From a virus, in IMG/VR virus record IMGVR_UViG_3300025012_000047, positions 1-64,000 of that record: a DNA stretch of 64,000 nt. One strand, written 5' to 3'. A program made the translations under genes and the position numbers. Under the pieces are notes generated by a model. That model was not told the origin of the DNA, searched no databases, and saw only the letters and a program-made list of their open reading frames with translations. Positions 21,598-50,378 of the stretch are shown one piece after another (positions within the stretch are counted from its first letter, which is position 1; every line of letters starts with the position of its first letter).

Positions 21598-23007
21598 ATG
21601 ATAAAGAAAGTATTTTTAGGAGATTTGCCAAAGAAATTAGGAGTTGGTGCTAATGCAAATAAAGAATGTATAGATTGGAATAAAAGTGTTGGATATAAAG
21701 TTAAGTTTATTTACGATGACATTGAAGACTATGTAGAAATAGTTAATCAATATAAAAAATTGGGTCAGAACTATTTAGAGATTAAATATAATGATAGAAT
21801 TGTACATATAAGTGCATATGGGTTTTCTAAATGTTCCATAGGTAATGTATTAAATAAATATGTCACTAGCTATAAATATAATATCAATAGTGTAATTAAT
21901 TTAAAATTTAGTGATATACAAATATTAGAACAAATTAAAATACCTCGTAAAAATGATGAGTTAAAAGGATATAAGTATAAATGTTTAAATTGTGGTAATG
22001 AAGATGTTATGAGTGAGAATCACTTAGATAGAGGCAGAGGTTGTAATGTATGTTGCGTTCCTTCAAAAAAGATTTTAATTGGATATAACGACTTATGGGC
22101 AACTCATCCTCATATAGCAAAACTACTTAAAGACACACAAGAAGGATATGAAATTACTCAAGGAAGTGATAAGTACAAAACATATATTTGTCCAGATTGT
22201 GACTATGAAAAATCTTATATTGCTCATAATTTAATTGTTTTTGGTTTTAGTTGTCCAAGGTGTGGGGATAAAATATCTTTTGGTAACAAGGTTGGATTTA
22301 GTTTGTTAGAGCAGTTAGGGGTTGATTTTATACCTGAATACAGTTTTCATGATTATAGATTTGATTTTTATTTTGAATTTAAAAATGTAAAATATAATTT
22401 AGAAATGGATGGTCGTCTTGGACATGGAAATACTAATACATTAACTAAACAATCTGCACAAGAAACAAAAGAATATGATGAAATAAGAGATCGTTTTTCA
22501 AATAAGTATGAAATAGAAGTAATAAGAATTGATTGCTTGAAAAGTAATTTAAATTTTATAAAGGAAAATATTATGCAGAGCAAATTAAAGGACTTATTCG
22601 ACTTATCAATTATAGATTGGAGTAAATGTGAAGAGTATGTTAATAAAGTTCTAATTAAAACAGCTTGTGATCATTGGAATAGTGGTATAAAAAATAGCCC
22701 AAAGATAGCAAAAGTAATGGGTTTAGCTAATACTACAGTTGTTTCCTATCTTAATAGGGGCGTAGAATTAGGACTTTGTGATTATAATAAAAATAGAAGA
22801 AAGATAATTCAATTATCTAAAGACAATAGTTTTATAAAAGAATGGGATGGTATTGCACAAACTGAAAGAGAATTAGATATTAATAATATTAGTTATTGTT
22901 GCTGGAAACATAATAATGATAAAACAGCAGGTGGTTTCAAGTGGATGTACAAAGAAGATTATGATCTATTACATACTACATCTAACCCACAACCCATACA
23001 AAACTAA
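21598..23007 (+). CDS. Homing-endonuclease-like protein (zinc ribbons, PD-(D/E)xK/Vsr-like nuclease, NUMOD1)
   Basis: Multiple CxxC, YRFDFYF...LEMDG.LGH, TAGGFKWMY. Confidence 0.75.
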   Translation: MIKKVFLGDLPKKLGVGANANKECIDWNKSVGYKVKFIYDDIEDYVEIVNQYKKLGQNYLEIKYNDRIVHISAYGFSKCSIGNVLNKYVTSYKYNINSVINLKFSDIQILEQIKIPRKNDELKGYKYKCLNCGNEDVMSENHLDRGRGCNVCCVPSKKILIGYNDLWATHPHIAKLLKDTQEGYEITQGSDKYKTYICPDCDYEKSYIAHNLIVFGFSCPRCGDKISFGNKVGFSLLEQLGVDFIPEYSFHDYRFDFYFEFKNVKYNLEMDGRLGHGNTNTLTKQSAQETKEYDEIRDRFSNKYEIEVIRIDCLKSNLNFIKENIMQSKLKDLFDLSIIDWSKCEEYVNKVLIKTACDHWNSGIKNSPKIAKVMGLANTTVVSYLNRGVELGLCDYNKNRRKIIQLSKDNSFIKEWDGIAQTERELDINNISYCCWKHNNDKTAGGFKWMYKEDYDLLHTTSNPQPIQN

Positions 23008-27652: not shown

Positions 27653-28654
27653 TTGGGAGTAAAATTACAGTCTACAGATATATATAAACAGAAAGTTTTT
27701 GCAAAGCGTGGTGATAAGGTTGAGATATTGAGTGAATATCTAGGAGGTACAGAACCAATAGATTTTGTTTATCATTGTGAAAAACATGGCGATACATATA
27801 AGACTTTAAATGCTAAGAATGTATTAGCAAGTTGTTTTCAACCTTGTAAACAATGTGATATTGAATTGAAAAGTTCGAAGGGCAAAAGTAAAAACATGAA
27901 TAAAGATTATCAATATAATAGACTAAAACAATTTTGTGAATCTAAAGGAGGTAAATTAATAAGTACAGTATGGACTATTGCTAAAGATACATATGAAATT
28001 CATTGCGGAAATCCTGAACATCCGAATTTCTTTAGCAATGCAGACGGAGTATTGAATAGTGCAGAAAATTGGTGTCCGTATTGCTGTGGTAGAAAAGGTA
28101 ACTTTGAGAAAGAAATAACAGATATCATAAATAGTAAAAATGGCATATTGCTTACTCCTTATAAATTATCTACAGAACATGTATCTATTAAATGTAATAT
28201 ACATAATTATATTTGGCCTATGATGCCATTGAACATAAAGAAAGGTAGGTGGTGTCCGGTATGTAATTTGCCATATTCAGAAAAAGTTCCTTATGACTAT
28301 CTTGTAGATAATTATCCGAGTTACAATATTAGAGTACAATATACTTTTGATGATTTGATGGGAGAAAACGGAGAACATTTAAAATATGATTTAGGAATAT
28401 TAGATGATACTGATAAATTGTTAGGCATAGTAGAAATAGATGACGATGAACATAGATACAATCATACACAACCAAGAAGAGTAAAAGCAAGAGAAAGAGA
28501 TAAAACAAAGGATAAATATTGTAAAGATAACAATATACCATTGTTTAGACTTGAATATTATAATGGTAGGAAAATGTTCAAAGATCGTGACTGGTACTAT
28601 AATTACATACATAAAAATTTGAATGAGTTCCTTAATTCTATAATTAATAAATAA
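27653..28654 (+). CDS. Homing-endonuclease-like protein (zinc ribbons plus PD-(D/E)xK/Vsr-like nuclease)
   Basis: WCPYC/WCPVC repeats; LKYDLGI...VEIDDDEH...DKTKDKYC. Confidence 0.75.
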   Translation: MGVKLQSTDIYKQKVFAKRGDKVEILSEYLGGTEPIDFVYHCEKHGDTYKTLNAKNVLASCFQPCKQCDIELKSSKGKSKNMNKDYQYNRLKQFCESKGGKLISTVWTIAKDTYEIHCGNPEHPNFFSNADGVLNSAENWCPYCCGRKGNFEKEITDIINSKNGILLTPYKLSTEHVSIKCNIHNYIWPMMPLNIKKGRWCPVCNLPYSEKVPYDYLVDNYPSYNIRVQYTFDDLMGENGEHLKYDLGILDDTDKLLGIVEIDDDEHRYNHTQPRRVKARERDKTKDKYCKDNNIPLFRLEYYNGRKMFKDRDWYYNYIHKNLNEFLNSIINK

Positions 28655-40774: not shown

Positions 40775-41704
40775 ATAAAGGTTATGTTTATACTAAAATG
40801 AGTGATGAGTTCGAAGTGAAAGTAGATGATTTATCTAATGGTTCTCATGTATTAGTTGAAGTGAGATGTGATGGTTGTATGGGGTATAGATACTTTTGGT
40901 AAAGATTTTCTTGATAAATATTGGGATTATAATAAAAACACAGTTAATCCTTGGGAGATATCAAGATGTGCAAACAAACCAAAAGTATGGATTAAGTGCC
41001 AAGAAAAAGATTATCATGGAAGTTATCCAATAATTTGTAATGGGTTTATAAATAAAGTTAGATGCCCTTATTGCCATAGTAGAGGTAGTGTACATAAGAT
41101 ACATAAATTAGATAGTTTAGGATCATTATTTTTAAAATCTGCTGCAGTTTGGTCTAATAAAAATGAAAAAACACCTTTTGAATATTCCCCTTTTAGCATT
41201 AAAGAAGTTTGGTGGAAGTGTCCTGATGGTAAACACGAAGATTATAAAAGAAAAATATCTGACTCAAATACTTACAAATTTAGATGTCCTGAATGTCAAT
41301 ATTCTAAAGGAGAAGATAGAATAGGAATACATTTAATAAATAATAATTGGAAGAAAATCATACAAGAAGAGTATGAAAAATTATTAAAAATAAATGAAGA
41401 TAATTATTATATTCCACAAAAAACTTTTAATAGATTATTAGGTTTAGGAGGAAAATTATTATCTTATGATTTTTATATCCCTAAATTAAATTTACTTATA
41501 GAATATCAAGGAGACCAGCATGAAAAACCTATAGATTTCAAAGGTAAAGGTAAAAAATATGCAGAGGAACAATTTGAAATTCAAAAAGAACATGACAAAA
41601 GAAAGAAAGAATATGCATTGCAAAACGGATATAATTTTCTAGAAATTTGGTATTGGGAATTTGATAATATTGAAGAGATTATAAATAATTATATTAATGT
41701 ATAA
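40744..41704 (+). pseudogene. Zinc-ribbon PD-(D/E)xK endonuclease with deleted and frameshifted N-terminus
   Basis: Orphan N-terminal frame WSSSNKKWYVNKGY...EVRCDGC joins out of frame to ORF 40868-41704 (SYDFYIP...IEYQGDQH). Confidence 0.6.
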
Positions 41705-42300: not shown

Positions 42301-43050
42301 ATGCAAATTAATAAACAAAAATATACATTATCTCAAGTTGAAGAAATTATCGACAACCACTTAGACTCTGAACAAAATTTAATGTTTATTTGTGACTTCT
42401 CAGTAGCACATTATATTTATGATTATATCCATAATGACTATGGAATAGATGCTGAGTGTATGGAATTGTCAAGTAATGTTGATGAATATTATGTAAGTTT
42501 ACAATTTTATAAAGATGAAGAAATTGGTTTCTTTTGTGAATTTGCTAGATGTAATGATGGAACTTATAAATATGACGAAGTTGATAATATAGATTACTAC
42601 GTGATGTCAAATATGTCGTTCGGAGATGTTAGGGAATTCTTAGCAGGTAAGGGAAGAGTAATATTTTGTGAGTTTGATGATGAGAGTAATGTGGAAGAAT
42701 TGGTTACTGAGGATGAATCATATCTCTGTAAGTGTTGTTCTTGCGATAATGATGATTGTGATGAGTATAATTGTACATGTGGTAAACCTGATTGTTGTGA
42801 TAATGAGTTATTAGAAGATGAGAATTGTGTTCCTTGTCCTTGCGTCTCATGTAAATCTGCTAGAGGTGAATTTACTCCAGAGGAAGAATATGAAATTGGA
42901 TTAGTAGAACATTATGCTCAGTATATTGAAAATAGTGAGTGTGAGTGCGGATCGCAATTAAGGAATATTCTTTATAGTATGTTACAGGAATGTATGTCTA
43001 TGGGGTATGAAAATGCTAAGGATGAGATGAGGGAGTTTTTAAAGGATTAG
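42301..43050 (+). CDS. Acidic, cysteine-rich hypothetical protein (YonH-like position)
   Basis: CKCCSCDNDDCDEYNCTCGKPDCCD...CVPCPCVSC. Confidence 0.75.
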   Translation: MQINKQKYTLSQVEEIIDNHLDSEQNLMFICDFSVAHYIYDYIHNDYGIDAECMELSSNVDEYYVSLQFYKDEEIGFFCEFARCNDGTYKYDEVDNIDYYVMSNMSFGDVREFLAGKGRVIFCEFDDESNVEELVTEDESYLCKCCSCDNDDCDEYNCTCGKPDCCDNELLEDENCVPCPCVSCKSARGEFTPEEEYEIGLVEHYAQYIENSECECGSQLRNILYSMLQECMSMGYENAKDEMREFLKD

Positions 43051-43261: not shown

Positions 43262-43297
43262 TGTTTTGGTAATTTAATATTTATTTTGCTATAGATA

Positions 43298-43328
43298 GTA
43301 CTCCTAGCTTTTAGTTAGGAGTATTTTT
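43298..43328 (+). terminator. Intrinsic terminator
   Basis: TACTCCTAGC-TTTTA-GTTAGGAGTA-TTTTT. Confidence 0.65.
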
Positions 43329-43412
43329 GTGTAACAAAATAAGTTATACAAATAAGGTAGTGTCTTACCACTAAAATATTGGGTCATGTCCTACCATGAG
43401 AAGGAGAAATAT

Positions 43413-44519
43413 ATGATAACTAAGGAACTATTAAACAAAAATAGAGTATTAACCATGTCAAACAATCGTAAATGTGATTATCTAATTGTGGATGTATCTT
43501 CCACCACAGGTAATAATAGAGACATTACAACTATGATGGCAATTAATACACAAGGAAATAGGAAAGATATTCTAGTCATCAAAACATTTATAGGAAAATC
43601 TTTTGCAGAACTTGTAGATGAAGCATATTGGTTGTGTTGTGAGTTCGGTATACAGATTATTTTAGTAGATAAATCAGGTATGGGATTAGGATTTATTGAA
43701 CAATTTGAGATGAATATAAATCCAAATAATGTTTCTGTAAGAGGATTAGATGGAAGAAAAATATATCAAAATATAAATATTAATGAAATAAAGAAAGATT
43801 TACAATATGGTAATTTGAGATTCTTACAAACACCAGAATTAGCTATGGTTAGTTATATGAAACCATTTTTAGGATTATCAAATATTATGGATTCACATAG
43901 AGAAACTAGTGAATTAATTAATGAGATAAATAATCTTGAGATCAAAATGAGATTAGATAAAATTGTTTTAAGTGGTTTAGATGAAACTATTGGTAAAGGA
44001 AGATTGAATTGTTTATTAGCGTTTTATTCTTATCCAATGAATATGGCATCAGAATTAGAAGATGACAGTAAGGGGAATAAAGAAAGATATGATGTTGCTA
44101 AAAGGAATAATAAATATGAAATAATTCATGGTATTTTTTATAAGTATATGTTTAAGTGTATTGAAAATAAGCATATTAAGGTAATATTTTATCATAATGG
44201 TCAGCACAAAATACAGAAGTTTCAAGATATAACTGAAGAAGATCAATTTAGAAGTTTATTTCTAAAAGATATAAAAAGTATAAGTAAATCAAAAGATCGT
44301 TTTGAGATTATTTTTTATAATGGAAGTATAATACAATTTATGTACGCTAGTGATAATGCAAGGGGATATAGAAGTCATTATGCTGTTGTGGATACTGAAA
44401 TTGATAGAGAAACATTTGATAATGTAATTAGATTTAAAACTATGTTGTTTGATGTGGAAAAAGAAAAAAGTTATGGGAGAATAGAGAATATTTATAATAT
44501 TGATTATATAGAGATGTAG
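43413..44519 (+). CDS. Degenerate, domain-permuted terminase large-subunit paralogue (nuclease-like N-terminus, ATPase fragment at C-terminus)
   Basis: IVDVSS...D, ILVDKSGMG and LINEINNL match the TerL nuclease; FYNGSII...ARGYRSHYAVVDT matches the TerL Walker-B region. Confidence 0.65.
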   Translation: MITKELLNKNRVLTMSNNRKCDYLIVDVSSTTGNNRDITTMMAINTQGNRKDILVIKTFIGKSFAELVDEAYWLCCEFGIQIILVDKSGMGLGFIEQFEMNINPNNVSVRGLDGRKIYQNININEIKKDLQYGNLRFLQTPELAMVSYMKPFLGLSNIMDSHRETSELINEINNLEIKMRLDKIVLSGLDETIGKGRLNCLLAFYSYPMNMASELEDDSKGNKERYDVAKRNNKYEIIHGIFYKYMFKCIENKHIKVIFYHNGQHKIQKFQDITEEDQFRSLFLKDIKSISKSKDRFEIIFYNGSIIQFMYASDNARGYRSHYAVVDTEIDRETFDNVIRFKTMLFDVEKEKSYGRIENIYNIDYIEM

Positions 44520-44718
44520 ATATATGTAATTTAATGTTTTGTGGATAAGTCGATAATCCAAGCAGAAATGTTTGGATTATTTGTTATTCACAGGAATATT
44601 GTGGATCAAAGTTGAGAGGTAATTTGGGAGTAGCTACCCATCTCTACACGCCTCTCTTCTTTATATTTTTAAGTTTTAGTGTAGAGAGAAATAAATGTGT
44701 AGAAAGAAGGAAATAAAG

Positions 44719-45909
44719 ATGTTACTAACAAAAGAAGTAGAGGTTACTTGTCTGTCAAATAATAAGAAATATATTGAAAGTTTAGGTCATAAGTGGAAAT
44801 ACAAAAAGATTTTTACTATCGATGTTCATAAATTATTAGATGGTAGCAATGCACCAATCCAATGTTTATGTGATTATTGCTTAGAAGAAGGAATAGAAAC
44901 AGTTATATCTAAACCATATTATAAATATACAAAGAGTCATAAAAATCAACCTATAATAAAAGACGCATGTGATAAATGCAGGCATAAGAAACAAGAAGAA
45001 TTATGCTTAATTAAAAATGGAGTCAGGTATAGCCCACAGATAAAAGGTGTAGGTAGCAAAATTGCAGTTGCTAAAACTAAATATAATATTAATGGAATAG
45101 ATGAAGAGTTCAAAGAAAGAGACTTAGTATTATTAACTAAAACTTATAAAAATGCAGAATCATATATGGAATTCATTTGTAACAAACATATAGATAAAGG
45201 TGTTCAGTCTATAAGATATGGAAATTTCAAATATAAAGATCAAGATTGCAAATATTGTTCTTGGGACAAATTAAGCAAAGATAAACGAAGAGATTTTAGT
45301 GAAGTTCAAGATTTATTTAAAGATAAAAAAGTAATTCTTCTATCAAAAGAAGAAGATTATATTAATAATCAATCACCATTGGAATATGAATGTCCAATAC
45401 ATAAGGGAATAATTCAAACAAAAACATATGAGGCAATGCTTCATTCTTATGGTTGTAATCTATGTAGTTATGATATGCATAAAGGAGAAAATAACCCAAT
45501 GTGGAAGGGTGGTTTCTCTGAGATAAATTCAATTTTAAGAGATTCTATTGCAGAATGGAAGAAAGAATCGATGATAGCATCAAATTATAAATGTGTTGTA
45601 ACAAATAAACGATTTGATGTAATTCATCATTTATATGGATTTGATAAAATATTTAATGATATATTTGATAACTTAAATATTGAAAAAAGAAGATTTATTA
45701 ATGAATATTCGGACGAAGAATTAGTATTGATTAGAAATGAATGTAGTAGATTACATAAAATTCATGGTGTCGGAGTTTGTTTAACTGGTGATATTCATGC
45801 ACTTTTCCACAAAATTTATGGGTATGGTGAAAATAATATAGAACAATTTAATGAATTTAAGGAAAATTATATTAGTGGTAAATATAAATATTTAGAAGAA
45901 GTTGGTTAA
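44719..45909 (+). CDS. HNH-like homing endonuclease
   Basis: CDYC N-terminus, GENNPMWKGG, CVVT...IHHLYGF...GVCL...HALFH. Confidence 0.75.
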   Translation: MLLTKEVEVTCLSNNKKYIESLGHKWKYKKIFTIDVHKLLDGSNAPIQCLCDYCLEEGIETVISKPYYKYTKSHKNQPIIKDACDKCRHKKQEELCLIKNGVRYSPQIKGVGSKIAVAKTKYNINGIDEEFKERDLVLLTKTYKNAESYMEFICNKHIDKGVQSIRYGNFKYKDQDCKYCSWDKLSKDKRRDFSEVQDLFKDKKVILLSKEEDYINNQSPLEYECPIHKGIIQTKTYEAMLHSYGCNLCSYDMHKGENNPMWKGGFSEINSILRDSIAEWKKESMIASNYKCVVTNKRFDVIHHLYGFDKIFNDIFDNLNIEKRRFINEYSDEELVLIRNECSRLHKIHGVGVCLTGDIHALFHKIYGYGENNIEQFNEFKENYISGKYKYLEEVG

Positions 45910-45943
45910 ATATCAACTTCTTCTATTAAGGAGTCAATTAAAT

Positions 45944-46786
45944 ATGGTAACTACTCAAAAATCTAAAACAAAAGTAAAAATTAAACGTAATGAAATTACT
46001 TGTACTAAATGTGGATTAATTAAATCTATAAATATAAGTAATTTTTTTAAGACAGATAACCCTTTGTATAGTGAATTTTTCCCAACGTGTAAGGATTGTA
46101 TTTATGAATTATATAACGCACATATACAAAATGGTTCTGATATTAGAAATGCTACTATACAGATTTGCGAATTATTAGATAGACCGTACATTGAAGATGT
46201 ATTTTTTACAACATATGAAAAAGAAAAAGACAGTATTAAAATTTTAGGTTTGTATCTTAAAAATTCATCCATGCAACAGTGGAAAAAACAAGGAATTATA
46301 AGATATAAAGATAGTATATTTGCTAAAAACACCTCACAGGGGATGCAATTAGTATTTGAAGATCAAACAAGAATATATAGCGAAGAGTGGAACGGGAGAT
46401 ATACCCAAACAGATATAAATTATCTTAATCAATATCTTACGGGACTACATTCTGATTTTAAAATTAACACAACTAGTTATAAAGATTATGCAAAGAAAAT
46501 TTGTTGTGCTAGTTTAGCTGTAAATAAAGCTTATCAAGATATGTTAGATGGTGTAAACGGAGCAGATAAAAAATATAAAGATTTACAATCAACTTTTGAT
46601 ACTCTATCGAAATCTGCTCAATTTAGTGAGAATTCTAGATCAAGTATGAGTGCAGGTATCAATAGTATTAGTCAAGTTGTTGATAAAATTGAAAGTAAAG
46701 AGTGGATATATGAAGCAGAAGAATATGAAAAAGATGCTATTGAACATTTATTAGATCAATTTAATAACATCCAGAAATCTTTGTAG
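45944..46786 (+). CDS. Putative terminase small subunit (YonG-like)
   Basis: CTKC...FF...PTCKDC zinc finger; directly upstream of TerL. Confidence 0.6.
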   Translation: MVTTQKSKTKVKIKRNEITCTKCGLIKSINISNFFKTDNPLYSEFFPTCKDCIYELYNAHIQNGSDIRNATIQICELLDRPYIEDVFFTTYEKEKDSIKILGLYLKNSSMQQWKKQGIIRYKDSIFAKNTSQGMQLVFEDQTRIYSEEWNGRYTQTDINYLNQYLTGLHSDFKINTTSYKDYAKKICCASLAVNKAYQDMLDGVNGADKKYKDLQSTFDTLSKSAQFSENSRSSMSAGINSISQVVDKIESKEWIYEAEEYEKDAIEHLLDQFNNIQKSL

Positions 46787-46794
46787 GTGATATA

Positions 46795-48531
46795 ATGGCA
46801 GTATTTAAAAACTTTAGTAAGAAAAGTAGACATATAAAAGATGGTGATTATGATAATTTAGACAGTAGTTTTAGTTATGATCCAATTATAGGAGAAGGGG
46901 AAAATTTAAATGATGAAGAATGGAAGAAATTCATTGCATATTATAGAATTCATATCGACAAATTTTGTATTGAAATTCTATGCTTAAAGCTTCATTTTTT
47001 TCAACGATTGATACTAAGAGCAATGGCAAGATATCAATATATAATGCTTATCTGTTGTCGTGGTCTTGGAAAATCTTGGATAGTGGCTTTATTTTTTGTT
47101 TGCTCTTGTATTCTTCACAAGGGGTTAAAATGTGGTATAGCTTCAGGGCAAGGACAACAGGCTAGGAACGTAATTATTCAAAAAATTAAAGGAGAATTAG
47201 CTAACAATCCAAATATAGCAAGAGAAATAATATTCCCAATTAGTGTTTCTTCGGACAATTGTGTTGTAAATTTTAGAAATGGTAGTGAAATTAGAGCTAT
47301 CGTATTGGGAAGAAATCAAGGTGACGGAGCTAGAAGTTGGAGATTCCATTATTTGGCAATTGACGAAGCTAGGCTCGTGCCAGATAGTATAATATCAACC
47401 ATCTTAATACCGATGACAAAAACTAAAAGACCAGTTGCAATTGAACATATGCAACCAGAAAAAGGCAAAGTAATTTTTATATCTTCAGCTTTTTTAAAAA
47501 CAAGCGATTTGTATAAAAGATTTACTTATTTTGCTGATAAAATGAAAGAAGGTAATAAAAATTATTTTGTTTGTGCGTTAGATTATAAGGTTGGAATTGA
47601 AGCTATGATATTTGATGCAGAAGATATTGAGGAAGAAAGAAGTAAGCCAGACACAACTGAAGAAATTTTTCTTTATGAGTATTGTGGACAGTTCGTAGGT
47701 TCTAGTGGTGAAAGTTATTATCCTTATGAAATAACATACCCATGTAGAATATTAGATCAGTGTGAATTAATTCAACCAAAAAAGAGTAAAAGTCAATATG
47801 TAATTGTACATGACGTTGCTTTATCTAATGCTAAAAACTCTGATAATGCATGTACCCATGTGATTAAACTTAAAGAAAAAGCCAATGGTACATATTTTAA
47901 AGACGTTGTTTATACAAAAACTCATAATGGAGCAACTCTTCCAGAACAAAGAGATTTCTTAAGAGAATTATATCATCTTAAATTTCCTAATGCAATAAAA
48001 ATAATTATTGATATGCGTGGAAACGGAGAACCTTTGCCTTCACTTTTTTATGAAGCTTGGGAATATAGAGATGAAAAAACAAAAGAAACGATTGAATTTC
48101 CCCCATTAGTTTTAGATGATGATGATAAAGGTAAAGAAATAAAAAATTCTCTACCTATAATTAGAGGAATCACAGCGACTCAAAGTAGTAATAATACAAT
48201 GTATACTTATCTTAAAGCGTCTTTTGAGAATAATTCTTTAAGATTATTAAAACATTCTACAGAGGTAGACGAAGAATACAAAAATGATCAAATAACAGTT
48301 GAAGAATATTCTATGTTTGTTCAGACAGATTTATTGATTCAGGAGTTATCTAATATCAAACAAATTTTAAGTGGCAATAATAATATAATTTATGATCGTA
48401 TTGTAAAAACCCATAAACGCGATAGAGCAACAAGTTTGGCTTATGGTTTGTCAGTAATTAATGAAATGGAAGAATATAATAGAAAAAATCAAACAGATGA
48501 TGACTACGATTTCGTATTTACTTATTCATAA
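46795..48531 (+). CDS. terL: Terminase large subunit (YonF-like)
   Basis: CRGLGKS Walker A, LAIDEA Walker B, VHDVA, IIDMRGNG, RDRATS. Confidence 0.9.
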   Translation: MAVFKNFSKKSRHIKDGDYDNLDSSFSYDPIIGEGENLNDEEWKKFIAYYRIHIDKFCIEILCLKLHFFQRLILRAMARYQYIMLICCRGLGKSWIVALFFVCSCILHKGLKCGIASGQGQQARNVIIQKIKGELANNPNIAREIIFPISVSSDNCVVNFRNGSEIRAIVLGRNQGDGARSWRFHYLAIDEARLVPDSIISTILIPMTKTKRPVAIEHMQPEKGKVIFISSAFLKTSDLYKRFTYFADKMKEGNKNYFVCALDYKVGIEAMIFDAEDIEEERSKPDTTEEIFLYEYCGQFVGSSGESYYPYEITYPCRILDQCELIQPKKSKSQYVIVHDVALSNAKNSDNACTHVIKLKEKANGTYFKDVVYTKTHNGATLPEQRDFLRELYHLKFPNAIKIIIDMRGNGEPLPSLFYEAWEYRDEKTKETIEFPPLVLDDDDKGKEIKNSLPIIRGITATQSSNNTMYTYLKASFENNSLRLLKHSTEVDEEYKNDQITVEEYSMFVQTDLLIQELSNIKQILSGNNNIIYDRIVKTHKRDRATSLAYGLSVINEMEEYNRKNQTDDDYDFVFTYS

Positions 48532-48788
48532 ATAATTCTGATGAAGATATGGAAATGGAAAATTATTAAGTTTCCTTGAATGAGAATTTTGATTCCAATT
48601 TAATAAGAAAGGAATTGTGATATGACAAGAACTATAGATTACGCCAAATGTCCTAAATGTGGTAAGAAATTTGAAATGGGATTCAATAATTATTAATTAT
48701 GGATGGATTGGTTTATTGGAGGTATTAGGTTATGAAGTTGAAATAAAATGTATTTCTGATGAATATTATAAAGAAAGGAGGTTTCTTC

Positions 48789-50378
48789 TTGGAGGAGGAA
48801 TATAATAATATATCGCCACTTAAACTTGAAACTTCTCATGCAATTGAATTGAATTCAATGTCTTTAACCACATATATGTTTCAAGAAGCATTAACGACTG
48901 GCATCTCACTTGAACAGCTAAAACTTTATTGTAAATATCCAATGAGATATAATATGCAATTACGTAAATTAAGTAGAGAAATGTATGGAATGAATGGAAT
49001 TATGTCGAATACAACAGATTATTATGTATCTATTGCGTCATTAGATAAAATTACAACATGCTATGATAATACAACTCAAAATCAAAAAAGAAGAAAATTA
49101 TATGATTTAATGACAGATAAAATTAATCATAAATTAACTTCTAGAGATATTTTACTTAGACTTTGTATAGACGGAATGTATGTAGGGTTTATGAGAAATT
49201 CCAAAGCATCTAATAAAGATGCAGTAATTCAACAAGGATTGGTTGACAGTATGCAGATTCTTGAAGGATTGTCTATGGATGATTCCATGATGATTCAACC
49301 ATTAAATTTAGATTATTGCAGAATATTGGGTTTTCAAAATAATGATTATGTCGTTGGTTTTGATATGCTATATTTTAATGCTTTTGTTGGTAATGATTTA
49401 TTAGGTGAAATTAAAAACTTCCCACCTGAATTTGTAAAGGCATATTTAGATTATAAAAAAGATGGCAGTAAAAGATGGTTTAAATTAGATCAATCTAAAA
49501 CTGTTGTTTTAAAAATAAAAAGTAATATTGATGAACCATTTGGTAGAGGGTTGGCTGTTGCTGCTTTGTCAGATATGTTTTTCTCTGATCAATATACTGA
49601 TAGTCAAAGAGCAAATATTATTGAAAATGCTGGAACTATAAGGTGGCTCAAACAACCAAGTGGTGAAAAACAAGGAACTTGTGCATTAAATAAAGATGCA
49701 CAGCAAAATCAATATGATAATTTTAAGAATGCAGTTTCATCTAATTCATCTGGAAGTGATAGAAGAATTGGAAAGACCACTACTTTAGTTTTAGCTCCTG
49801 GGACTGAAGTTGGAAAACTTGAAACAAATACTAATGATACAATAAATACCTTAACTGATGAGAATATGAAAAGAATTTCAACTGATTTAGGGTTTGCTTC
49901 TGGAGCATTAAATGGTGAAGGGAATGCTACATATAGTAGTTTGCAAGTTAATATCGACCTAGTATTGACACAAATTTATCAATGGTTAGAACAAATTTCA
50001 TGGCAATATACTAAAGTATTTAATAATCTAATTAATTCTAAAGGCAAAGATATAATTAAATTTATATATTTAAAAACATCTTCATTGAATAAGAAAAATG
50101 AATATGATATTGCCAAAGAAATGTTTACGTTAGCAAGTGGAAGTAGATTATGGTTGTATGCTGTTGGTAGTGGCGATATAGATACATATATGTCATTAAT
50201 GGAATATGAGAAGGTAATGGATATGGATGCCCTCTATCCTCCCCACTTAACTAGTTTTACCTCAAATAATGAAACTGGAGATAAAGGTGGAAGACCATCT
50301 GGTGATTCGCAGAATACCAATACTCAAAAATCGAAATCAGCTAATACTAATAAAACACCAAAACCATCAACCAAATAA
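48789..50378 (+). CDS. Portal protein (YonE-like)
   Basis: Position after TerL, size, EPFGRG motif; AAGGAGG RBS before TTG 48789. Confidence 0.75.
   Translation: MEEEYNNISPLKLETSHAIELNSMSLTTYMFQEALTTGISLEQLKLYCKYPMRYNMQLRKLSREMYGMNGIMSNTTDYYVSIASLDKITTCYDNTTQNQKRRKLYDLMTDKINHKLTSRDILLRLCIDGMYVGFMRNSKASNKDAVIQQGLVDSMQILEGLSMDDSMMIQPLNLDYCRILGFQNNDYVVGFDMLYFNAFVGNDLLGEIKNFPPEFVKAYLDYKKDGSKRWFKLDQSKTVVLKIKSNIDEPFGRGLAVAALSDMFFSDQYTDSQRANIIENAGTIRWLKQPSGEKQGTCALNKDAQQNQYDNFKNAVSSNSSGSDRRIGKTTTLVLAPGTEVGKLETNTNDTINTLTDENMKRISTDLGFASGALNGEGNATYSSLQVNIDLVLTQIYQWLEQISWQYTKVFNNLINSKGKDIIKFIYLKTSSLNKKNEYDIAKEMFTLASGSRLWLYAVGSGDIDTYMSLMEYEKVMDMDALYPPHLTSFTSNNETGDKGGRPSGDSQNTNTQKSKSANTNKTPKPSTK

What the first reader, a model, noticed from the sequence alone, without database searches (positions are those of the whole stretch)
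43413..44519. Permuted, apparently dead terminase paralogue upstream of the real TerL (possible decoy)
Seen by comparison with TerL at 46795. The N-terminal part aligns to the nuclease domain (IVDVSSTTGNNRD vs VHDVALSNAKNSD; ILVDKSGMG vs IIIDMRGNG; LINEINNL vs LIQELSNI; KGR vs RDR, so the last acidic residue is lost). The C-terminal part aligns to the ATPase (FYNGSII...ARGYRSHYAVVDT vs FRNGSEI...ARSWRFHYLAIDE; Walker B Glu lost, no Walker A). Domain order is reversed, yet the ORF is intact with an RBS. Established: Avs/STAND defence proteins sense terminase folds. Inference: a decoy for such sensors, a packaging regulator, or a dominant-negative factor against competing phages.
Basis: partly seen in the sequence, partly recalled or inferred. 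Interest (0 to 1): 0.7.

Follow-up and report, generated by a model that had tools for sequence, protein, structure and literature searches.

The report
Domain-swapped, inactive terminase-like accessory protein
A large uncultured groundwater phage carries an intact, conserved gene built from the two halves of the DNA-packaging enzyme TerL in reversed order with key catalytic residues missing; it is optional among related phages, so it probably acts by mimicry rather than catalysis, but its function is untested.

Summary
Window 43413-44519 (+) encodes a 368-aa protein, here called X. Residues 1-212 have the TerL nuclease fold (hhalign E 3e-12 to the phage's TerL family; Z 15.8 to T4 gp17 363-558). 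Residues 225-368 are a TerL ATPase core without a P-loop (hhalign E 5e-12; Z 8.8-9.0 to TerL ATPases).

Canonical catalysis is gone:
- There is no Walker A.
- The catalytic Glu position is T/S/N/K/R in 39/39 homologues.
- The third nuclease Asp is absent in 39/39, and the first in 4/39.

The gene is nevertheless kept: 55 homologues were found, most about 365 aa, and dN/dS is 0.15-0.5 in both halves.

- X is not a recent copy of the neighbouring TerL. A nearly identical X allele sits beside TerL types that are only about 23% identical.
- X is accessory. It is absent upstream of TerL in 23 of 31 related loci, where Ant/Bro-like or unknown genes fill the slot.
- Its C-domain belongs to a diverse, undescribed family of small stand-alone proteins (E 8e-29). 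One relative carries only the C-domain in the same slot.

The function was not determined. I favour a non-catalytic TerL mimic used in a conflict, ahead of a modulator of the phage's own packaging. First readers of this scan also noted a relative of this gene in another genome.

The parts
43297..43325 (+). Terminator-like hairpin (13 pairs plus T-run) ending the upstream unit
43401..43406 (+). AAGGAG ribosome-binding site, 6 nt before the ATG at 43413
   Evidence: read directly from the sequence
43413..44519 (+). Gene X, 368 aa plus stop. An alternative in-frame start at 43386 gives 377 aa.
43413..44048 (+). N-domain, residues 1-212: TerL-type RNase H/RuvC-like nuclease fold. D27 is present in 35/39 homologues and D86 in 39/39. 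The third Asp position (196) is S/L/G/T/A/N/V/I. E171 and N174 (TerL E517 and N520) are invariant. The N-terminal motif at residues 4-24 is nearly invariant.
44085..44516 (+). C-domain, residues 225-368: TerL ATPase core lacking the P-loop strand, with a long helix (221-251) in its place. The Walker B Asp D327 is present in 38/39; the catalytic Glu position (328) is never acidic. The R317-G318 motif is kept in 35/39 and 39/39.
44552..44581 (+). Terminator-like hairpin just after the stop codon; X looks like an insulated single-gene unit
44695..45909 (+). Context: 404-aa zinc-finger/HNH-like endonuclease gene between X and the TerS-like gene. The occupant of this slot varies in family among relatives.
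45902..46786 (+). Context: 294-aa TerS-like gene. The label rests on position only; it matches phrog_3314, of unknown function.
46795..48531 (+). Context: the canonical TerL (578 aa), with Walker A, catalytic Glu E191 and nuclease D340/D406/D543 all present
48759..50378 (+). Context: portal protein

Best explanation
X is an accessory pseudo-terminase. A TerL-type nuclease-fold domain is fused in front of a P-loop-less TerL ATPase core. That core is itself one member of a diverse family of small stand-alone proteins.

Shown:
- Both folds and both homologies to TerL.
- No Walker A, no catalytic Glu and no third nuclease Asp.
- Purifying selection on both halves.
- X is optional among related phages, and its alleles shuffle independently of TerL type.

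Inferred:
- X cannot act as a motor or as a canonical two-metal nuclease, so it works by binding rather than catalysis.
- It still presents TerL surfaces. These are the nuclease groove, with D27, D86, E171 and N174 kept, and the face that carries the R-G motif at the position of the P74-26 trans-arginine finger.
- I therefore favour a TerL mimic that competes for something that recognises TerL. It behaves like cargo rather than core machinery, so the most likely partner lies outside its own motor. Candidates are a TerL-sensing host defence, or the terminase ring of a rival phage or satellite, which it could cap because it can donate an arginine finger but cannot accept one.

The confidence given is for this mechanism. 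That X is an intact, selected, catalytically crippled TerL derivative I hold at about 0.95.
For: Fold and homology: supported.

Catalytic residues:
- More divergent members lose still more. P0068 has D86 replaced by N; the N-domain-only protein P0081 has D27 replaced by E and D86 by N.
- PMC5389553 shows that the three matching Asp residues of G20c TerL are indispensable, and that metal A is held by the first and third.

Selection: omega is 0.15-0.5 in both halves. In the same genome pairs X has omega 0.22-0.44 against 0.01-0.13 for TerL.

Accessory behaviour:
- No X was found upstream of TerL in 23 of 31 related loci with at least 4.5 kb of upstream sequence. One of these is L040, whose TerL is 86% identical to the window's.
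- In those loci the slot holds Ant/KilAC/ORF6N-type or unknown genes.
- Window and L004 share a 99.8% identical TerL but a 72% identical X.
- L011 and L013 share a 96-100% identical X but carry unrelated TerL types.
- Terminator-like hairpins flank the gene on both sides.

Autonomy of the C-domain: L080 and L081 carry a C-domain-only ORF in the same slot, and stand-alone small relatives exist.

Arg-finger position: PMC5727402 places the P74-26 finger R139 between alpha2 and beta3. X R317 and TerL R180 sit in that position, 11 residues before the Walker B carboxylates.
Against: - No partner was identified, and nothing here shows binding to anything.
- Whether the unknown host carries TerL-sensing defences cannot be known.
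- A TerL look-alike could trigger an Avs-type sensor rather than block it.
- Where present, X always lies just upstream of the endonuclease/TerS-like/TerL/portal block. This fits a packaging role equally well.
- Retention of D27, D86, E171 and N174, together with the X-specific invariant residues H162 and E164, leaves room for residual or relocated nuclease chemistry.
- Omega of 0.2-0.4 is ordinary purifying selection, not a signature of an arms race.
Confidence: 0.4

Rival explanations
1. X is a non-catalytic accessory subunit or regulator of the phage's own packaging. It could, for example, bind concatemer DNA or the portal, or restrain TerL's nuclease or ATPase until a procapsid is available.
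For: X holds a fixed position as the last gene before the endonuclease/TerS-like/TerL/portal block in all 16 loci that carry it. Dead paralogues often regulate their active relatives. The retained DNA-groove residues and R-G motif would suit binding to DNA or to TerL.
Against: X is absent from 23 of 31 related loci, including one with a TerL 86% identical to the window's. The same X allele pairs with TerL types that are about 23% identical. X is only 72% identical between phages whose TerS-like, TerL and portal genes are 97-99.8% identical. SPbeta-like phages have the homologous packaging block but no X.
Confidence: 0.3
2. X is still an active nuclease or nickase with a relocated third ligand such as H162 or E164. 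It could serve debranching, host DNA degradation or end processing, with the C-domain as a DNA-binding or regulatory module.
For: D86, E171 and N174 are invariant and D27 is present in 35/39 homologues. H162, E164 and T165 are invariant and specific to X. The RNase H-like fold tolerates relocation of catalytic residues.
Against: The third Asp, the metal-A ligand that is indispensable in G20c TerL, is missing in 39/39 homologues. The first Asp is N or T in 4/39, and the second is N in P0068 and P0081, yet these proteins remain intact. The natural C-domain-only variant L081 lacks the nuclease half altogether.
Confidence: 0.12
3. X is a decaying remnant of a terminase duplication or rearrangement and has no function.
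For: Catalytic motifs are lost and the gene is optional among relatives.
Against: 55 homologues were found, most about 365 aa, down to 44% identity. Omega is well below 1 in both halves. The N-terminal motif is nearly invariant while its synonymous sites vary. The models are confident.
Confidence: 0.03

Closest known systems
Large terminase subunit TerL (T4 gp17-type, Pfam Terminase_6N/6C), specifically the TerL clade of SPbeta-like phages and Clostridium phage c-st
   Same: Both domains of X are homologous to TerL domains in sequence profile and in fold. Motifs shared with the phage's own TerL family include R11/R318, D27/D340, D86/D406, E171/E517, N174/N520, the NGS motif, the R-G motif and the Walker B Asp.
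   Different: The domain order is reversed. TerL residues 1-101 (Q motif, Walker A), 225-293 (lid) and the C-terminal tail are absent. X has no catalytic Glu and no third nuclease Asp. It is 368 aa against 578 aa, is optional among relatives and is not linked to one TerL type.
Uncharacterised small stand-alone proteins of 110-170 aa (alignment A3). Their only library hit is phrog_15503, a family of unknown function.
   Same: The C-domain of X aligns over its whole length with this family (99.8% probability, E 8e-29). Shared features are the absent P-loop, a conserved Cys in the first helix, NGS, R-G, the Walker B Asp and a variable residue where the catalytic Glu should be.
   Different: These are single-domain proteins and seem to sit in other contexts. 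In the one locus I could read, L027, small zinc-ribbon ORFs follow the gene. Their function is unknown.
Gpi of the Vibrio satellite PLE, an inhibitor that binds phage ICP1 TerL (PMC11417361)
   Same: This is a possible functional analogue only: an accessory protein that blocks packaging by acting on TerL.
   Different: No similarity to Gpi was tested here. Gpi is encoded by a satellite, X by a phage. TerL binding by X is not shown.
RuvC-type and Ydc2-type Holliday junction resolvases
   Same: They share the RNase H-like fold with the N-domain (Z 7.4-8.7).
   Different: The match is much weaker than to TerL nucleases (Z 12-16), and the acidic catalytic set is incomplete in X.
Viral pseudoenzymes in general (reviewed in PMC7605207)
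   Same: X is a catalytically deficient relative of a viral enzyme that is retained under selection.
   Different: I found no terminase-derived pseudoenzyme in the literature searches I ran.

Membership tests
TerL (large terminase) | N-terminal ATPase followed by a C-terminal nuclease | tested here: not met
   The order is reversed: nuclease at 1-212, ATPase core at 225-368.
TerL (large terminase) | Walker A P-loop (R/G-x-x-G-K-S/T; R89 and K93 are invariant in this phage clade's TerLs) | tested here: not met
   No P-loop or beta1 strand. The model has one helix, 221-251, where they should be, and the alignment to TerL starts only at TerL residue 102.
TerL (large terminase) | Walker B Asp followed by the catalytic Glu (E191 is invariant in the clade's TerLs) | tested here: not met
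   The Asp is kept in 38/39 homologues. The Glu position is T, S, N, K or R in 39/39.
TerL (large terminase) | Three nuclease carboxylates (TerL D340, D406, D543), equivalent to G20c D294, D347, D429, which are indispensable | tested here: not met
   The first is present in 35/39, the second in 39/39 and the third in 0/39.
TerL (large terminase) | RNase H-like nuclease fold and ASCE ATPase fold of terminase type | tested here: met
   Z 15.8 for the nuclease fold and 8.8-9.0 for the ATPase core; hhalign E about 1e-12 for each half.
Small P-loop-less TerL-ATPase-core proteins (A3, undescribed) | A single domain of about 120 aa that starts at the helix after the missing P-loop, with conserved Cys, NGS, R-G and Walker B Asp | tested here: met
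   The X C-domain matches with hhalign 99.8%, E 8.4e-29 over 115 columns. A C-domain-only form occurs at the same locus in L081.
Anti-defence decoy for TerL-sensing STAND/Avs proteins | Binds the sensor and prevents its activation, rescuing the phage on Avs-positive hosts | not testable with these tools
   There is no host, no cognate sensor and no binding data. PADLOC gave no hit, which is expected for a phage gene.
RuvC-like Holliday junction resolvase | Complete acidic catalytic set on an RNase H fold, with closest structural kinship to resolvases | tested here: not met
   The acidic set is incomplete, and resolvases score Z 7.4-8.7 against 12-16 for TerL nucleases.

The most novel reading that the evidence does not exclude
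X and the diverse small stand-alone family that its C-domain belongs to would be a previously unrecognised class of phage-encoded terminase mimics. These P-loop-less ATPase cores keep the arginine-finger face. They would act in trans either to poison the packaging rings of competing phages or satellites, or to blind TerL-sensing immune receptors. In X the module is fused to a catalytically disabled TerL nuclease domain that would add DNA or sensor binding.
Probability: 0.2. Interest if true: 0.85.

Novelty: new variant of a known kind. Interest (0 to 1): 0.6.

Why it matters
TerL is the most conserved protein of tailed phages. It is both the packaging motor and a main target of bacterial pattern-recognition immunity. 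A selected, domain-swapped TerL derivative that has lost its canonical catalytic residues, together with a large hidden family of P-loop-less TerL ATPase cores, would be a new kind of terminase-derived factor. If these proteins modulate or poison terminase rings, or mask TerL from sensors, they would give new handles on packaging control and on phage-host and phage-phage conflict. Even without a known function, the family should be kept apart from true TerL in annotation and in TerL-based phage phylogenies. The TerL profile matches X at E 1e-5 to 1e-12.

Tried and rejected
- Complex prediction of X with TerL gave no verdict (score 0.01). This counts neither for nor against binding.
- The search for related loci found nothing usable for P0084, P0094, P0081 and P0068 in IMG/VR. 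Alignment A3 was too diverse to search with. The single metagenome scan returned one 1.2-kb contig.
- X has no match in Pfam, NCBIfam, PADLOC, the PDB by sequence, 50,697 cultured phage records or the representative genomes of 185,579 species.
- The 394-405-aa genes upstream of the packaging block in SPbeta-like phages are not X homologues.
- Hits of the small family in cultured phages were all inside true TerL genes.
- No RNA holder was listed among public sequencing runs.
- Literature searches for permuted, paralogous or inactive terminases and for TerL decoys found nothing relevant.
- I considered a DNA or RNA element as the cause of the invariant N-terminal motif and rejected it, because synonymous sites vary there (for example, five codons are used for R19).
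- I considered an assembly chimera and rejected it, because full-length homologues come from several independent sources.
- The TerS-like rows with omega above 1 are frame or alignment artefacts of my script and are not used.

Full report
**What is there**

Window 43413-44519 (+) is an intact ORF of 368 aa, here called X.
- An AAGGAG RBS lies at 43401-43406. An in-frame ATG at 43386 would add nine residues, and some homologues do carry such an extension.
- Terminator-like hairpins sit at 43297-43325 and 44552-44581. The scan found three such sites in the region, against 0.5 expected by chance. X therefore looks like an insulated single-gene unit.
- Downstream follow a 404-aa HNH-like endonuclease gene, a 294-aa TerS-like gene, the canonical TerL (46795-48531) and the portal gene.
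- The record is a 99-kb fragment of an AT-rich (about 28% GC) uncultured phage. The DNA is held in groundwater and sediment metagenomes.
- A related 178-kb contig carries X 1.8 kb from its end but has neither TerL nor portal. The genomes therefore exceed 178 kb.

**Check of the observation**

Profiles make the relationship solid.
- An alignment of 39 X homologues against 12 TerLs of this phage group gives X 3-221 to TerL 294-564 at 97.6% probability, E 3.4e-12.
- The C-terminal part alone gives X 246-355 to TerL 102-224 at 97.5%, E 5.1e-12.
- PHROGs agrees: phrog_15503, which covers the TerL ATPase region, matches X 246-342 at E 6e-9.
- Language-model features also place X among terminases.

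Structure prediction gives the same picture.
- The AF2 model has pLDDT 78.
- Against 48,161 PDB chains, residues 1-212 match 14 TerL nuclease domains at Z 12.3-15.8. The best is T4 gp17 363-558 (Z 15.8, rmsd 3.0, 177 aligned). The first different fold, the Ydc2 resolvase, scores Z 8.7.
- Residues 229-367 match the T4 gp17 ATPase 160-286 (Z 9.0) and the P74-26 TerL ATPase (Z 8.7).
- Foldseek against the PDB and BFVD also returns terminases first.
- The C-domain folded alone, with a deeper alignment, reaches pLDDT 90.9. Five of its six best matches are TerL ATPases, at Z 8.2-8.8.
- At that Z the fold alone is a generic ASCE core. The assignment to TerL therefore rests on the sequence profiles.

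**Catalytic state**

The TerLs of this clade keep Q70, R89, K93, R183, E191, D340, D406, E517, N520 and D543 invariant. The 39 X homologues compare as follows.

ATPase half:
- There is no P-loop. The model shows one long helix, 221-251, where beta1 and Walker A should be.
- The Walker B Asp is kept in 38/39.
- The catalytic Glu position is T, S, N, K or R in 39/39.

Nuclease half:
- The first Asp (D27) is kept in 35/39.
- The second acid (D86) is kept in 39/39.
- The third Asp position is S, L, G, T, A, N, V or I in 39/39.
- E171 and N174 (TerL E517 and N520) and R11 (TerL R318) are invariant.

More distant relatives lose still more. P0068 has D86 replaced by N. The stand-alone N-domain protein P0081 has D27 replaced by E and D86 by N. 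For G20c TerL the three equivalent Asp residues are indispensable, and metal A is bound by the first and third (PMC5389553).

Canonical ATP hydrolysis is therefore excluded, and canonical two-metal cleavage is very unlikely. A relocated ligand such as the X-specific invariant residues H162 or E164 cannot be ruled out without coordinates or an assay.

One motor feature is kept. The R-G motif (R317 in 35/39, G318 in 39/39) lies 11 residues before the Walker B position. That is where the P74-26 trans-arginine finger R139 lies, between alpha2 and beta3 (PMC5727402). This mapping is my inference.

**Is the gene functional?**

- The 5.8-billion-protein search found 55 homologues, most about 365 aa, down to 44% identity.
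- Nei-Gojobori dN/dS is 0.15-0.19 for the closest pairs and 0.2-0.6 overall. Both halves stay below 1.
- For the same genome pairs, TerL has omega 0.01-0.13 and X 0.22-0.44. X is constrained, but roughly three times less than TerL.
- The nearly invariant N-terminal motif (residues 4-24) is conserved at protein level, since its synonymous sites vary.

**Relation to the packaging module**

In all 16 IMG/VR loci that carry X, the gene order is X, a variable endonuclease-like ORF of 230-410 aa, the TerS-like gene, TerL and portal. X does not, however, track TerL.
- Window and L004 have a 99.8% identical TerL and a 97.6% identical portal, but a 72% identical X.
- L011 and L013 have a 96-100% identical X gene but carry TerLs 86% and 23% identical to the window's.
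- The two halves of X also recombine independently of each other.

I then fetched 80 loci through the TerL profile.
- Of the 31 with at least 4.5 kb upstream of TerL, 23 have no X by tblastn.
- For 21 of those 23, half-specific HMMs of X also matched no ORF upstream of TerL; apart from one weak, fragmented match downstream of TerL in L086, they matched only TerL itself.
- One of these loci is L040, whose TerL is 86% identical to the window's.
- In these loci the same backbone genes flank the slot. The slot itself holds Ant/KilAC/ORF6N/Rha-type or unknown genes.

X is therefore cargo in a variable slot at the left border of the packaging block, not core machinery. It is absent from cultured phages, including SPbeta-like phages that have the homologous TerS-like/TerL/portal block. 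It is also absent from the representative genomes of 185,579 species.

**Origin**

A profile search of 1.84 billion representatives shows how narrow the full architecture is. The full-length forms are P0020, P0053, P0058 and P0068, with fragments beside them. After these come true TerLs and more than a hundred small proteins of 110-170 aa that match only X 235-345.
- These small proteins start with Met and form a diverse family, with 25% mean identity. They share a conserved Cys, NGS, R-G and the Walker B Asp, and the residue after that Asp is variable.
- One of them is a clean stand-alone ORF on its contig.
- The X C-domain matches this family at E 8.4e-29. That is far better than its match to TerL (E 5e-12). 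The family itself matches TerL at E 1.7e-13.
- L080 and L081 carry a 156-aa C-domain-only gene in the X slot, preceded by an unrelated 239-aa ORF.

X is therefore better described as a fusion of two TerL-derived modules than as a circularly permuted duplicate of the adjacent TerL.

**Mechanism**

Nothing here identifies a partner. The one complex prediction, X with TerL, gave no verdict and is not used as evidence.

Several features point to a binding function that is not tied to the phage's own motor:
- the loss of catalytic residues alongside retained surface motifs;
- the optional, shuffled, insulated nature of the gene;
- its indifference to TerL type;
- the autonomy of the C-domain.

I therefore favour a TerL mimic used in a conflict, at about 0.4. 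It could cap foreign terminase rings, since it can donate an arginine finger but has no ATP site to receive one. Or it could occupy TerL-sensing receptors.

The alternatives are:
- a modulator of the phage's own packaging (about 0.3), supported mainly by the fixed position next to the packaging genes;
- residual nuclease activity (about 0.12);
- a functionless remnant (about 0.03).

Gpi of the PLE satellite shows that accessory TerL inhibitors exist (PMC11417361). I found no report of a terminase-derived inhibitor, decoy or pseudoenzyme.

**Verdict**

The description as permuted and lacking canonical catalytic residues is supported. The label 'paralogue of the neighbouring TerL' needs correction, and the proposed functions remain open. 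This is a new variant of a known kind: a terminase derivative with no described counterpart. First-stage readers of this scan flagged the same gene in another window of this genome and a relative in another genome.

Noticed in passing
proteins P0084-P0201; locus L027:116-454: A large, diverse and undescribed family of small stand-alone proteins (110-170 aa). They correspond to the TerL ATPase core without Walker A and mostly without the catalytic Glu. Their only library hit is phrog_15503, of unknown function. On one 1.2-kb contig the gene is followed by small zinc-ribbon ORFs rather than packaging genes.
   Followed up: partly
L081:5132-5602 (also L080:1553-2071): A natural variant carries only the C-domain of X (156 aa, about 71% identical) in the same slot upstream of the endonuclease/TerS-like/TerL block. 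It is preceded by an unrelated 239-aa ORF.
   Followed up: partly
window 44695-45909, also 21598-23007, 27653-28654 and 40868-41704: The phage is rich in HNH/homing-endonuclease-like genes. The ORF between X and the TerS-like gene differs in family among relatives and marks a recombination boundary: TerS-like, TerL and portal are near-identical between window and L004, while X and the endonuclease gene are divergent.
   Followed up: partly
window 48496-48528 (TerL C-terminus) and 44490-44516 (X C-terminus): The TerL C-terminal tail (consensus D-Y-D-F-V-F-S-Y-S) is the most conserved stretch across otherwise 22-26% identical TerL types. X ends in a loosely similar conserved N-Y-N-I-E-F-I-E-M, with the Tyr at the same distance from the C-terminus. 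This may be coincidence, because the model places this stretch of X as a strand of the ATPase core. Some TerLs (L010, L014, L081) end instead in ...SPSSYFAIANKSSRARR.
   Followed up: no
P0089 (1013 aa); L026:3741-7518 (Mammaliicoccus phage phi127): TerLs of this clade are hot spots for insertions. P0089 looks like a TerL with an intein inserted at the Walker A motif. In phi127 an annotated endonuclease gene sits just upstream of a 504-aa TerL-like CDS whose start aligns to the region after Walker A.
   Followed up: no
G001 (IMGVR_UViG_3300024999_000035, 178,304 bp): This contig is rated 100% complete by CheckV, yet neither the TerL profile nor the window's portal protein found a TerL or portal gene in it. 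It ends 1.8 kb after X, so the true genome is larger than 178 kb and the completeness estimate is wrong.
   Followed up: partly
window 42301-43050: A Cys-rich acidic 249-aa protein with no family match is conserved just upstream of the variable slot, both in relatives that carry X and in those that lack it.
   Followed up: no
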